A DNA stretch of 64,000 bases, from NCBI RefSeq assembly GCF_003334335.1, contig NZ_QOWQ01000008.1. The stretch is one strand, 5' to 3'. The DNA comes from Escherichia coli. Lineage in GTDB: Bacteria > Pseudomonadota > Gammaproteobacteria > Enterobacterales > Enterobacteriaceae. The translations under genes were made by a program, and so were the position numbers. Below, piece after piece: positions 51,050 to 51,490 of this stretch; positions within the stretch are counted from its first letter, which is position 1, and each line of letters begins with the position of its first letter. A model generated the notes under the pieces. The model saw only the letters and a list, made by a program, of their open reading frames with translations, did not search any database and was not told where the DNA came from.

Positions 51050-51490
51050 ATGAAACGACTTCTGATTCTTACGGCACTCCTGCCGTTTGTCGGCTTTGCA
51101 CAGCCCATTAATACTCTGAACAACCCTAACCAGCCGGGGTATCAGATACCCAGCCAGCAGCGGATGCAAACCCAGATGCAGACTCAGCAAATCCAGCAAA
51201 AAGGGATGCTGAATCAGCAACTGAAAACGCAAACTCAGTTGCAACAGCAGCATTTAGAAAACCAGATAAACAATAATTCTCAGCGGGTGTTGCAGTCACA
51301 GCCGGGGGAGCGAAATCCCGCCCGGCAGCAAATGCTGCCCAACACCAACGGCGGGATGTTAAACAGCAACCGTAATCCGGATAGTTCGTTGAATCAGCAG
51401 CATATGCTGCCGGAGAGGAGAAACGGCGACATGCTGAATCAGCCCAGCACGCCGCAGCCTGACATTCCGTTGAAAACTATTGGGCCGTAA
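51050..51490 (+). CDS. yhhA: Secreted Gln-rich low-complexity protein YhhA (DUF2756)
   Basis: 146-aa [60 protein letters not shown]...; signal peptide followed by Q/N-rich repeats. Confidence 0.9.

What the first reader, a model, noticed from the sequence alone, without database searches (positions are those of the whole stretch)
51050..51490. yhhA: signal peptide followed by Q/N-rich low-complexity repeats, with its 3' end overlapping convergent ugpQ
Seen in sequence: after a typical signal peptide ([17 protein letters not shown]) the protein is dominated by Gln and Asn ([41 protein letters not shown]...) with recurring MLNQ/MLPE units, unusual for an enterobacterial periplasmic protein. The last 14 bp of yhhA overlap the 3' end of ugpQ on the opposite strand (51477-51490). 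Function unknown.
Basis: seen in the sequence. Interest (0 to 1): 0.3.

Follow-up and report, generated by a model that had tools for sequence, protein, structure and literature searches.

The report
yhhA: conserved Gln-rich periplasmic stress protein
This is the known but uncharacterised E. coli gene yhhA, a small exported protein made largely of glutamine and asparagine whose end overlaps the neighbouring gene ugpQ; the description is correct, but the gene, its family and the overlap are already catalogued.

Summary
ORF 51050-51490 (+) encodes the 146-aa YhhA (Pfam DUF2756, NCBIfam PRK10350). It has a Sec-type signal peptide, 32% Gln+Asn, five Met-Leu motifs, and a 14-nt tail-to-tail overlap with ugpQ (51477-51490).

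New detail:
- The Gln-rich part is not drifting low-complexity sequence. Its sequence is tightly conserved (whole-gene dN/dS 0.04-0.16, about 0.01 in the middle within Escherichia).
- AlphaFold predicts a single long polar helix (aa 34-83) flanked by disorder. It has no heptad pattern, and two linked copies show no confident packing.
- The tail is a duplicated unit of about 24 aa.
- Rare E. coli alleles carry only in-frame indels (96-165 aa).
- The family is confined to Enterobacteriaceae and close relatives. The gene always sits between ggt and ugpQ, and the 3' overlap is present in 71 of 79 species.
- Terminator-like hairpins for each gene lie inside the other gene. This fits the published yhhA-ugpQ "excludon" call.

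Literature places yhhA in the sigma-S general stress regulon and detects the protein abundantly in envelope extracts.

Most likely it is a non-enzymatic, largely disordered periplasmic stress protein. The mechanism is inferred, not shown. Novelty: already known. Interest: low to moderate.

The parts
51050..51490 (+). yhhA CDS (146 codons plus TAA), DUF2756 / PRK10350 family
   Evidence: ORF list. Pfam PF10956 E = 1.1e-60. NCBIfam NF007675 equivalog, 265 bits against a cut-off of 136. RefSeq annotation of identical DNA. Substitutions within Escherichia are almost all at third codon positions. dN/dS is 0.04-0.16.
51050..51100 (+). Signal peptide, aa 1-17 ([17 protein letters not shown]), with inferred signal peptidase I cleavage after Ala17 leaving an N-terminal Gln18-Pro19
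   Evidence: Read from the sequence: a K2-R3 n-region, a 13-residue hydrophobic core, and G-F-A at -3..-1. A17, Q18 and P19 are invariant in 20 genera. No lipobox and no twin-arginine motif. The cleavage site is inferred; no SignalP was available.
51101..51148 (+). Conserved Asn/Pro-rich N-terminal motif of the mature protein, aa 18-33 ([16 protein letters not shown])
   Evidence: N21, N24, N25, P26, N27 and Y31 are invariant. The per-residue conservation profile across 80 species agrees. dN is about 0 within Escherichia. Distant short relatives keep QPGYNPS. AlphaFold predicts no regular structure here.
51149..51298 (+). Gln-rich segment, aa 34-83, predicted as a single long alpha-helix and the most conserved part of the family
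   Evidence: AlphaFold2 helix 34-83 with block pLDDT 72-87. Many Gln positions are invariant. dN/dS is about 0.01 within Escherichia. There is no 3.5-residue hydrophobic periodicity. Rare E. coli alleles carry in-frame deletions or duplications here.
51299..51487 (+). Disordered C-terminal tail, aa 84-146, carrying [G/H]-M-L motifs and the conserved C-terminus PLKTIGP
   Evidence: Block-mean pLDDT is 43-53 from residue 81 on; it is below 50 in segments 87-93, 101-103, 105-109 and 111-143. M103/L104, H118/M119/L120, G126 and M128/L129 are invariant or nearly so. The tail is absent from distant relatives of 80-110 aa.
51323..51391 (+). Tail repeat unit 1, aa 92-114 ([23 protein letters not shown])
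   Evidence: Internal alignment to unit 2 scores 46 against shuffles of 22.3 +/- 4.8. DNA direct repeats D5/D6 lie at 72-75 nt spacing. E. albertii lacks one unit.
51395..51472 (+). Tail repeat unit 2, aa 116-141 ([26 protein letters not shown])
   Evidence: Same evidence as for unit 1.
51477..51490 (.). 14-nt tail-to-tail overlap of the yhhA and ugpQ coding sequences
   Evidence: In 79 other species the overlap is 4 nt in 37, 14 nt in 14, 11-23 nt in 20, and absent in 8. The 4-nt form is a shared TTAA holding both stop codons. In the E. coli lineage UgpQ runs 3 codons further (..NFTAQ*).
51477..52220 (-). ugpQ CDS (glycerophosphodiester phosphodiesterase), last gene of the ugp operon, convergent with yhhA
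   Evidence: Synteny ggt <- yhhA -> <- ugpQ is seen in 78 of the 80 species loci; L005 and L078 lack a ggt hit. It also holds for the distant relatives P0158 and P0138.
51015..51023 (+). Candidate sigma-S-type -10 element TAAACTTAA for yhhA (inferred)
   Evidence: The block is invariant or nearly so in 15 genera. It occurs once in the window. It lies 27 nt upstream of the ATG. A sigma-S holoenzyme SELEX peak lies in the ggt/yhhA spacer (PMC5493296). The match to the sigma-S -10 consensus is judged from memory. No transcription start site data were checked.
51038..51042 (+). Shine-Dalgarno sequence GGAGG, 7 nt upstream of the ATG
   Evidence: Read from the sequence. Conserved as GGAGG or GGAG across genera.
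51537..51576 (+). Terminator-like hairpin plus TTTATTG downstream of yhhA, embedded in ugpQ codons (..[12 protein letters not shown]..)
   Evidence: RNA fold of 51470-51620 gives z = -3.6; the hairpin alone is -25 kcal/mol. Hairpin plus T-tract is found in Escherichia, Enterobacter, Lelliottia, Trabulsiella and others, but the T-tract is missing in many genera. 85% of cells are paired with little covariation, so coding constraint cannot be separated from RNA constraint.
51416..51455 (-). Terminator-like hairpin (13 pairs) plus CGTTTCTCCT downstream of ugpQ, embedded in yhhA codons (..[14 protein letters not shown]..)
   Evidence: Found by the pattern scan. The fold gives -27.4 kcal/mol, z = -1.9. 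The hairpin is conserved in Escherichia and Citrobacter, where the tail is a better T-tract, TTTTTCTC. Its function was not tested.

Best explanation
The feature is the core-genome gene yhhA.

Shown:
- It is a real protein-coding gene under strong purifying selection.
- It is restricted to Enterobacteriaceae and close relatives.
- It sits between ggt and ugpQ in every locus examined that retains its flanks.
- Its 3' end overlaps ugpQ.

From the literature:
- It is transcribed as part of the sigma-S general stress response: stationary phase, cold, acid, multiple stresses, and the envelope stress caused by LolCDE inhibition.
- The protein is detected by mass spectrometry, and is among the most abundant species in an envelope extract.

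Inferred:
- The precursor is exported by Sec and cleaved after Ala17.
- This leaves a 129-aa mature protein that is basic (pI 10.4) and very hydrophilic (GRAVY -1.40).
- Its parts are a conserved Asn/Pro-rich N-terminal motif, one non-amphipathic Gln-rich helix of about 50 residues, and a disordered tail with repeated [G/H]-Met-Leu short motifs.
- It has no catalytic features. It most likely acts stoichiometrically in the periplasm during stress, as a hydrophilic protectant or holdase-like binder. The conserved N-terminal motif, helix and ML motifs would engage an envelope partner that is still unknown.

Inferred about transcription:
- Because the two genes converge with no spacer, each transcript must end inside the other gene.
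- Candidate hairpins lie at 51537-51576 (+) and 51455-51416 (-), which would give about 150 nt of antisense overlap.
- This overlap could couple sigma-S-driven yhhA expression and Pho-driven ugp expression negatively.
For: Identity
- Pfam DUF2756 E = 1e-60 and NCBIfam equivalog above cut-off.
- 5425 of 5426 complete E. coli genomes carry the locus, annotated yhhA.

Coding and constraint
- Third-position substitution pattern.
- dN/dS 0.04-0.16 overall and about 0.01 in the helix within Escherichia, against 0.06-0.10 for ugpQ.
- All observed E. coli length alleles are in frame.

Architecture
- AlphaFold helix 34-83 (block pLDDT 72-87), with the rest at low confidence.
- The mature part lies on the disordered side of the charge-hydropathy boundary (mean hydropathy 0.344 against a boundary of 0.424).
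- Conservation is concentrated in aa 17-74.
- Distant relatives keep only the signal peptide, N-terminal motif and helix.

Distribution and synteny
- 138 species, with all 80 loci listed from Enterobacteriaceae going by the record titles (one is titled Chryseobacterium).
- Only 79 clusters at 50% identity among 1.84 billion proteins.
- ggt-yhhA-ugpQ order in 78 of 80 loci, and also for distant relatives.

Expression
- Sigma-S SELEX peak in the ggt/yhhA spacer (PMC5493296).
- Listed with RpoS-regulon genes induced on cold shift (PMC4057180).
- Stress hub together with rpoS (PMC9501238).
- Up at the growth transition alongside rpoS (PMC2241611).
- 5.6-fold induction by a LolCDE inhibitor (PMC5105897).
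- Rapid acid response (PMC2270276).

Protein detection
- Among the top-15 proteins of STEC envelope extracts (PMC9731836).
- Detected in the Salmonella proteome (PMC4265081).
- Detected in an ESBL E. coli proteome (PMC9927464).

Transcript overlap
- CDS overlap.
- Embedded hairpins.
- yhhA-ugpQ is listed among 165 convergent excludons present in at least 50% of 58 MG1655 transcriptomes (PMC12288877).
Against: - No experiment assigns a function. The protectant or binder role rests on composition, predicted disorder and co-regulation only.
- The strong residue-level conservation of the helix argues for a specific partner or structure rather than a generic 'hydrophilic filler'. No partner is known.
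- Rare natural alleles delete or duplicate 10-50 residues of the helix or tail, so length is not strictly required.
- The Gly content (5.4%) is below the hydrophilin criterion as I recall it.
- Export and the cleavage site are predicted, not measured here.
- The embedded hairpins lie in coding sequence. Their conservation is explained at least partly by the encoded amino acids, and covariation is inconclusive.
- The T-tract after the yhhA hairpin is absent in many genera.
- A Term-seq data set reports only an ORF-internal 3' end in yhhA and none in ugpQ.
Confidence: 0.5

Rival explanations
1. Prion-like or functional-amyloid reading. The Q/N-rich mature protein self-assembles in the periplasm or at the cell surface into amyloid, gel or condensate, as curli subunits or yeast Q/N prion domains do. 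That assembly would be its function.
For: - 36 Q/N in an 80-residue window exceeds the 30-of-80 criterion for Q/N-rich domains (criterion recalled from Michelitsch and Weissman 2000; count).
- It has a signal peptide and sigma-S-linked expression, like curli.
- It is abundant in envelope extracts.
- Predicted disorder flanks a polar helix.
Against: - There is no Curlin repeat or any other amyloid family hit.
- There is no csgG/E/F-type secretion context.
- The mature part is 10.9% proline and 12% charged residues.
- The Q-rich core is predicted helical, with no heptad periodicity.
- Two linked copies give no confident packing: pTM 0.31, and helix pLDDT falls to 57-62.
- Residue-level conservation (dN/dS about 0.01) is unlike composition-driven prion domains.
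Confidence: 0.1
2. Type III secretion effector reading. YhhA would be injected into host cells by EPEC or EHEC, and its clustered S/T-Q and Q-S/T motifs would mimic ATM/ATR kinase substrates (proposal of bioRxiv 10.1101/364117).
For: [quoted passage not shown]
- The protein is indeed rich in TQ, SQ and QT.
Against: - The cited reference could not be traced in the held text.
- The protein has a classical Sec signal peptide.
- It is a core gene in 5425 of 5426 E. coli genomes on the chromosome, not a marker of particular pathotypes.
- It occurs in 138 Enterobacteriaceae species, including environmental genera such as Buttiauxella, Kosakonia and Phytobacter.
- It sits at one fixed housekeeping locus.
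- S/TQ richness follows trivially from 20% Gln.
- An abundant periplasmic protein can appear in culture supernatants by leakage.
Confidence: 0.03
3. Methionine-motif reading. The conserved, exposed Met residues (M39, M43, M53, M95, M103, M119, M128, mostly as [G/H]-M-L) would bind soft metal ions (Cu(I)/Ag(I)) as in SilE/PcoE-type disordered periplasmic proteins. Alternatively they would serve as a sacrificial oxidant sink recycled by periplasmic MsrP.
For: - Met is 5.4% of the mature protein.
- Met and Leu are among the few invariant non-polar residues (M43, M53/L54, M119/L120 invariant; M39, M103, M128 nearly so).
- ML dipeptides are 8-fold over expectation.
- The protein is disordered and periplasmic, like SilE/PcoE (comparison from memory).
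- The gene responds to several stresses, including oxidative stress, in a meta-analysis.
Against: - There are only 2 His and no MxxM, MxM or HxxM arrays of the kind I recall for Cu/Ag binders.
- There is no metal-resistance gene context.
- There is no Pfam hit to metal-binding families.
- No report of copper, silver or HOCl induction turned up in the papers read.
Confidence: 0.1
4. Regulatory-transcription reading. The main selected role of the locus would be antisense control of the ugp operon 3' end (an excludon), with the encoded protein being secondary.
For: - The tail-to-tail overlap is conserved in 71 of 79 species.
- Terminator-like hairpins are embedded in each other's coding regions.
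- The RNA-seq-based excludon listing includes the pair.
Against: - Purifying selection on the amino-acid sequence is very strong along the whole protein, including the 5' two thirds far from ugpQ.
- The protein is abundant in proteomes.
- 8 species have separated genes with gaps of 7-96 nt.
- Short overlaps of convergent genes are common: 165 such pairs are listed in E. coli.
Confidence: 0.1

Closest known systems
DUF2756 (Pfam PF10956) / PRK10350 (NCBIfam NF007675), the YhhA family
   Same: Full-length match above the curated thresholds. The genomic position and architecture match those of all family members examined.
   Different: Nothing differs: it is the E. coli type member. The family itself has no assigned function and no solved structure (no PDB match at E <= 1).
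Small sigma-S-dependent periplasmic or envelope stress proteins of E. coli (OsmY, YahO, YbgS, YmgD, PsiF, Ivy) and hydrophilins / LEA-like proteins
   Same: It is co-listed with these proteins in transcriptome and proteome studies. Like them it is small, exported or very hydrophilic, stress-induced and non-enzymatic.
   Different: There is no sequence relationship. Its composition is dominated by Gln/Asn rather than Gly, Ser or charged residues. Gly at 5.4% misses the hydrophilin cut-off as I recall it. No protective activity has been tested.
Q/N-rich prion-like domains and curli subunits (CsgA/CsgB)
   Same: It has the Q/N density of a Q/N-rich domain (36 of 80), it is exported, and it is sigma-S-linked.
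   Different: It has no curlin repeats and no dedicated secretion genes. It is predicted helical rather than beta. It is proline-rich in the flanks. It is conserved by position rather than by composition.
Convergent 'excludon' gene pairs (overlapping 3' transcripts of neighbouring genes)
   Same: The coding sequences converge and overlap, and yhhA-ugpQ is listed in the E. coli MG1655 excludome.
   Different: Mutually exclusive expression or RNase III processing has not been shown for this pair. The terminator positions proposed here are predictions.

Membership tests
DUF2756 / PRK10350 (YhhA family) | Match to the family profile above the curated threshold | tested here: met
   PF10956 E = 1.1e-60, model positions 1-105 of 105. 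NF007675 equivalog, 265 bits against a cut-off of 136, positions 1-145 of 145.
DUF2756 / PRK10350 (YhhA family) | Conserved genomic position between ggt and ugpQ in Enterobacteriaceae | tested here: met
   Both flanks are found in 78 of 80 species loci, in the window, and for the distant relatives P0158 and P0138.
Sec-exported periplasmic protein (signal peptidase I substrate) | N-terminal positive n-region, hydrophobic core, small residues at -3/-1; no lipobox and no twin-arginine motif | tested here: met
   MKR / [13 protein letters not shown] / G-F-A then QP. A17, Q18 and P19 are invariant. Judged by eye, with no SignalP. Actual cleavage and localisation are not testable with these tools. 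Detection in envelope extracts is consistent.
Q/N-rich (prion-like) domain, criterion of Michelitsch and Weissman (recalled from memory) | At least 30 Gln+Asn within 80 consecutive residues | tested here: met
   36 Q/N in aa 21-100.
Q/N-rich (prion-like) domain | Self-propagating aggregation or amyloid formation | not testable with these tools
   Indirect evidence only: helix prediction, no heptads, and no confident packing of two linked copies.
Canonical coiled coil | Heptad (3.5-residue) periodicity of hydrophobic residues along the helix | tested here: not met
   Spectral power at period 3.5 is 1.2, against a mean shuffle maximum of 26.8. At best 5 of 11 hydrophobic residues fall at a/d positions in any register. 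The linked dimer gives pTM 0.31.
Curli subunits (CsgA/CsgB) | Curlin repeats (Pfam Curlin_rpt) and a csg operon context | tested here: not met
   No such Pfam hit. The neighbours are ggt and the ugp operon.
Hydrophilins (definition recalled from Garay-Arroyo et al. 2000) | Hydrophilicity index above 1 and Gly content above 6% | tested here: not met
   GRAVY -1.40 passes. Gly at 5.4% of the mature part, or 5.5% of the precursor, fails narrowly.
Type III secretion effectors | Confined to T3SS-bearing pathogens or mobile islands; non-cleaved N-terminal secretion signal; T3SS-dependent translocation | tested here: not met
   It is a chromosomal core gene in 5425 of 5426 E. coli genomes and occurs in 138 Enterobacteriaceae species at a fixed housekeeping locus. 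It has a Sec-type signal peptide. Translocation itself is not testable here, and the preprint's supporting reference could not be traced.
Convergent excludon | Overlapping transcripts from convergent neighbours | tested here: met
   The coding sequences overlap by 14 nt, so the transcripts must overlap. RNA-seq-based listing in PMC12288877.
Convergent excludon | Mutually exclusive expression or RNase III-dependent processing of the pair | not testable with these tools
   No data were found. The Term-seq supplement lists no 3' ends for ugpQ.

The most novel reading that the evidence does not exclude
YhhA would be a periplasmic, sigma-S-induced Q/N-rich protein whose conserved polar helix and multivalent Met-Leu motifs drive reversible self-assembly (gel, condensate or amyloid-like) in the periplasm under stress. 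That would make it a prion-like domain working outside the bacterial cytoplasm. Its level would be cross-wired to phosphate-starvation ugp expression through the conserved antisense overlap.
Probability: 0.08. Interest if true: 0.6.

Novelty: already known. Interest (0 to 1): 0.25.

Why it matters
yhhA is one of the remaining uncharacterised genes of the E. coli core genome. It is expressed, abundant under stress, and as tightly constrained as a neighbouring enzyme, yet it has a composition almost unique in the window and no solved relative.

Working out what a conserved, non-amphipathic Gln-rich helix does in the ATP-free periplasm would fill a gap in the general stress response. It could also reveal a new kind of envelope protectant or binding module.

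The gene pair is a clean, evolutionarily conserved test case for whether short convergent overlaps with terminators embedded in coding sequence have regulatory consequences. As a scan finding, though, it reports nothing that databases and recent papers do not already list.

Tried and rejected
- Tandem Repeats Finder found no DNA tandem array in 50950-51600. The repeats are at the protein-motif level only.
- The sigma-70 consensus scan found no promoter in 50850-52300. The promoter proposal rests on a conserved sigma-S-like -10 block instead.
- Rfam gave no credible RNA family in 50700-51800; the best E-value was 0.42 at 12 bits.
- There was no PDB sequence relative at E <= 1, no PADLOC defence family, and only chance-level extra Pfam hits (CemA, ThsA_Macro; E about 0.15).
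- The coiled-coil idea was rejected: no heptad periodicity, and an AlphaFold run on two helix copies joined by a Gly-Ser linker gave lower confidence than the monomer (pTM 0.31).
- A covariation test of the yhhA-downstream hairpin was inconclusive. The pairs are mostly invariant because they encode conserved UgpQ residues.
- No fold search was run. The model is a single helix, so matches would be meaningless.
- The 'validated EPEC effector' statement could not be traced to its source. The preprint text as held has no reference list, and a literature search did not surface the source.
- The classic RpoS-regulon papers (PMC1063999, PMC523212) are not held. The sigma-S ChIP-seq paper does not mention yhhA.
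- An exact-sequence look-up of the window protein in the 15-billion-protein collection returned nothing, although identical DNA exists in RefSeq genomes.
- The elevated NG86 dS in the helix (0.6-1.6, against about 0.2 in the tail and in ugpQ) is probably a method artefact of two-fold degenerate CAA/CAG codons. I did not build on it.
- Prion and amyloid predictors (PLAAC, PAPA), IUPred and SignalP were not available. I did not re-implement them from memory.
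Full report
**1. Observation**

The window holds an ATG-initiated ORF at 51050-51490 on the + strand.

On the opposite strand, a 247-aa ORF at 51477-52220 ends inside it, so the two coding sequences share 14 nt, 51477-51490.

A 701-nt query around the gene matches 5425 of 5426 complete E. coli genomes, always on the chromosome. The annotation there is yhhA (DUF2756 family protein), flanked by ggt and ugpQ. In a 100% identical genome the RefSeq coordinates reproduce both stops. The window is therefore the E. coli ggt-yhhA-ugpQCEA region.

The composition is exceptional:
- Q is 19.9% and N 12.3% of the precursor; Q is 22.5% and N 14.0% of the mature part.
- Q+N is 32%, against 8.9 +/- 3.9% for the 80 ORFs of at least 100 aa in the window (z = 5.9).
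- The best 80-residue window holds 36 Q/N.

Met-Leu dipeptides occur five times against 0.65 expected (P about 1e-4). The C-terminal tail contains two copies of a unit of about 24 aa: [14 protein letters not shown]... and [15 protein letters not shown].... Their alignment scores 46 against 22.3 +/- 4.8 in shuffles.

At the DNA level there is no tandem array. There are only short dispersed repeats at 72-75 nt spacing.

**2. Is it a real gene, and how constrained is it?**

Pfam gives DUF2756 at E = 1e-60. NCBIfam gives the equivalog PRK10350 at 265 bits against a cut-off of 136.

Among Escherichia species the substitutions are almost all synonymous third-position changes, mostly CAA/CAG.

| Comparison | dN/dS (Nei-Gojobori) |
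|---|---|
| yhhA, whole gene | 0.04-0.16 |
| yhhA, aa 34-83, within Escherichia | about 0.01 |
| ugpQ, same genomes | 0.06-0.10 |

So the Gln-rich region is conserved position by position. It is not a drifting low-complexity tract.

An alignment of 20 genera has these invariant features:
- A17-Q18-P19, N24-N25-P26-N27 and Y31.
- P34-S35, Q37-R38, Q40, Q42-M43.
- Q46-Q47, Q49-Q50, G52-M53-L54, Q56.
- Q65-Q66-Q67 and M119-L120.

A profile over 80 species shows conservation concentrated in aa 17-74.

Rare E. coli alleles range from 96 to 165 aa. All differ by in-frame deletions or duplications inside the Gln-rich middle or the tail, while aa 1-43 and 117-146 stay invariant. E. albertii lacks exactly one tail unit. 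One otter isolate has lost the 3' ends of both yhhA and ugpQ.

**3. Architecture**

The N-terminus is MKR, then [13 protein letters not shown], then G-F-A followed by Q-P. This is a classical Sec / signal peptidase I signal with no lipobox or twin-arginine motif (read from the sequence).

The predicted mature protein has these properties:
- 129 aa and 14.7 kDa.
- pI 10.4 and GRAVY -1.40.
- It falls on the disordered side of the charge-hydropathy boundary.

AlphaFold2 with a 20-sequence alignment predicts one long helix, aa 34-83 (block pLDDT 72-87). Everything else is at low confidence (block pLDDT 43-61; mean pLDDT 60, pTM 0.24).

The helix is not amphipathic and has no heptad periodicity. 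Spectral power at 3.5 residues is 1.2, against a mean shuffle maximum of 26.8.

Two helix copies joined by a Gly-Ser linker gave lower confidence (pTM 0.31, helix pLDDT 57-62). There is therefore no computational support for a stable coiled coil.

**4. Distribution and context**

A profile search of 1.84 billion representative proteins found only 79 clusters.

A scan of one genome per species found relatives in 138 species. By their record titles, all 80 loci listed are Enterobacteriaceae (one is titled Chryseobacterium).

In 78 of the 80 loci the gene lies between ggt (divergent) and ugpQ (convergent).

More distant relatives of 80-110 aa keep the signal peptide, a QPGYNPSQQRMQ motif, a Gln-rich helix and QRVLxSQPG, but lack the Met-Leu tail. 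Two of them were located and sit at the same position.

There is no solved structure, no defence-system family and no RNA family match.

**5. The 3' overlap**

| Spacing between the yhhA and ugpQ stops | Species (of 79) |
|---|---|
| 4-nt overlap | 37 |
| 14-nt overlap | 14 |
| 11-23-nt overlap | 20 |
| separated by 7-96 nt | 8 |

The 4-nt form is a palindromic TTAA that contains both stop codons. In the E. coli lineage that antisense stop is lost and UgpQ runs three codons further (..NFTAQ*), which gives 14 nt.

With no spacer, each transcript must terminate inside the other gene. There are two candidates.

- *Downstream of yhhA.* A strong hairpin at 51537-51570 is followed by TTTATTG. It is formed by the ugpQ codons for [11 protein letters not shown]. 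The fold gives z = -3.6, and the hairpin alone is -25 kcal/mol.
- *Downstream of ugpQ.* A 13-pair hairpin at 51455-51426 is followed by CGTTTCTCCT. It is formed by the yhhA codons for [12 protein letters not shown]. In Citrobacter its tail is a better T-tract.

The yhhA hairpin is kept in most genera (85% of cells paired) but with little covariation. Its T-tract depends on a Lys codon of UgpQ that many genera lack. Selection on RNA structure therefore cannot be separated from coding constraint.

Independently, an RNA-seq survey lists yhhA-ugpQ among 165 convergent 'excludons' seen in at least half of 58 MG1655 transcriptomes (PMC12288877).

A Term-seq study reports only an ORF-internal, Rho-independent 3' end 51 nt into yhhA, and nothing for ugpQ (PMC7815308 supplements). 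I do not know whether that study sampled conditions in which the ugp operon is induced.

**6. Expression evidence from papers**

- Sigma-S holoenzyme binds the ggt/yhhA spacer in genomic SELEX (PMC5493296).
- yhhA is listed with RpoS-regulon genes induced after cold shift (PMC4057180).
- It rises with rpoS at growth transitions (PMC2241611).
- It responds to rapid acid treatment (PMC2270276).
- It is a hub with rpoS in a multi-stress meta-analysis (PMC9501238).
- It is induced 5.6-fold by a LolCDE inhibitor, together with Rcs and RpoS genes (PMC5105897).
- The protein is detected in Salmonella (PMC4265081) and in an ESBL E. coli strain (PMC9927464).
- It is among the 15 most abundant proteins of STEC envelope extracts, next to HdeB, Ivy, PsiF, SodC, YmgD and ZraP (PMC9731836).

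In the 119-nt ggt-yhhA spacer, the block TAAACTTAA (51015-51023) is invariant or nearly so across 15 genera. It lies 27 nt upstream of the ATG and ahead of a GGAGG Shine-Dalgarno sequence. It resembles the sigma-S -10 consensus as I recall it. This is an inference, and no start-site data were checked.

**7. Most likely mechanism**

Shown:
- A conserved, translated, strongly constrained gene.
- A narrow taxonomic range and a fixed locus.
- Overlap of the 3' ends.

From the literature:
- Sigma-S and general-stress expression.
- An abundant protein in envelope fractions.

Inferred:
- Sec export and cleavage after Ala17.
- A basic, very hydrophilic, largely disordered periplasmic protein with one polar helix and multivalent [G/H]-M-L motifs.
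- No catalytic residues or cofactor motifs, so a stoichiometric role is most plausible. That role would be a protectant or a holdase-like binder of an envelope component during stress. The conserved N-terminal motif and helix would be the specific interface.

I put about 0.5 on this overall picture. Identity and gene reality are near certain. The stress-protein class is likely. The exact activity is unknown.

Rivals:
- Prion-like or amyloid assembly (about 0.1). The Q/N density is met, but proline, charge, helix prediction, positional conservation and the lack of curli features argue against it.
- A methionine-based metal or oxidant role (about 0.1). Met and Leu are strikingly conserved, but there are no classic Cu/Ag motifs or context.
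- A mainly regulatory antisense role (about 0.1). This is contradicted as a sole function by protein-level selection and abundance.
- A type III effector that mimics ATM substrates, as a preprint proposes (about 0.03). This is contradicted by the Sec signal, the core-genome distribution and the housekeeping locus. The supporting citation could not be traced.

**8. Comparison with what is known, and verdict**

It is the type member of DUF2756/PRK10350, with every membership feature tested and met.

It behaves like the small sigma-S-dependent periplasmic stress proteins but is unrelated to them in sequence. It narrowly fails the hydrophilin Gly criterion as I recall it. It meets a Q/N-rich-domain count criterion but fails the coiled-coil and curli tests.

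The gene, the family, the Q-rich and S/TQ-rich character (preprint 10.1101/364117) and the overlapping-transcript status are all already on record. The finding is correct but already known.

- The strength and position-specificity of selection on the Gln-rich helix.
- The duplicated tail unit.
- The in-frame length alleles.
- The family-wide conservation of the locus and of the tail-to-tail overlap, including the TTAA shared-stop ancestor-like form.
- The two coding-embedded terminator candidates.

Interest: 0.25.

Noticed in passing
window 50951-50961 (ggt-yhhA intergenic spacer): A short GC hairpin, GGGGCAACCCC, lies just upstream of the ggt ribosome-binding site on the - strand. It is kept in 15 genera with different loops and apparently compensating stem changes (GGGGTCGGCCCC, GGGACTCATGCTCCC, and others). 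It could be a ggt 5'-leader structure. From memory, ggt expression is temperature-dependent.
   Followed up: no
window 50965-50981: The block TAAGCCTGGTnnAnAAC is nearly invariant across 15 genera in the divergent ggt/yhhA spacer. A second conserved block, AATCATCGT, lies at 50990-50998. These are probably promoter or regulator sites for ggt and/or yhhA. The sigma-70 consensus scan found nothing here.
   Followed up: partly
window about 51101 (51 nt into yhhA, + strand): The supplements of a published Term-seq study (PMC7815308) list a reproducible, Rho-independent ORF-internal 3' end at genome position 3586994, at the end of the signal-peptide coding part. A 6-bp hairpin (51071-51086) lies just upstream. 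Its significance is unknown; it may be premature termination or processing.
   Followed up: partly
window, inside ugpQ (51477-52220): The genomic SELEX paper PMC5493296 lists a peak of intensity 18.1 located inside ugpQ (between yhhA and ugpC) in its table for the flagellar sigma factor. This suggests an intragenic or antisense promoter-like site in ugpQ.
   Followed up: no
L086 (E. coli strain A16, otter; NZ_CP028758.1 4498179-4498995): A natural deletion removes the 3' ends of both yhhA and ugpQ. ugpQ and ugpE are also frameshifted in this genome. It is one of only about 4 of 5426 genomes without an intact locus.
   Followed up: partly
window 51149-51298 versus 51299-51487: Within Escherichia, synonymous divergence is much higher in the Gln-rich helix (NG86 dS 0.6-1.6) than in the tail (0.13-0.21) or in ugpQ (0.21-0.26). 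This is probably a two-fold-degenerate-codon artefact. It could also reflect extra constraint on the tail from the embedded hairpin and overlap, or recombination among alleles.
   Followed up: partly
window 48866-49150 (+) and upstream; L001 1-1251: Upstream of ggt lie yrhB, yrhD and yrhA, preceded by an Hcp1-family type VI secretion gene (tssD) in the matching RefSeq genome. None of these is part of this finding.
   Followed up: no
window 51050-51487 (protein): An exact-sequence look-up of this YhhA protein in the 15-billion-protein collection returned 'not in the collection', although identical DNA is present in RefSeq E. coli genomes. The closest cluster representatives were 98% identical.
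   Followed up: no
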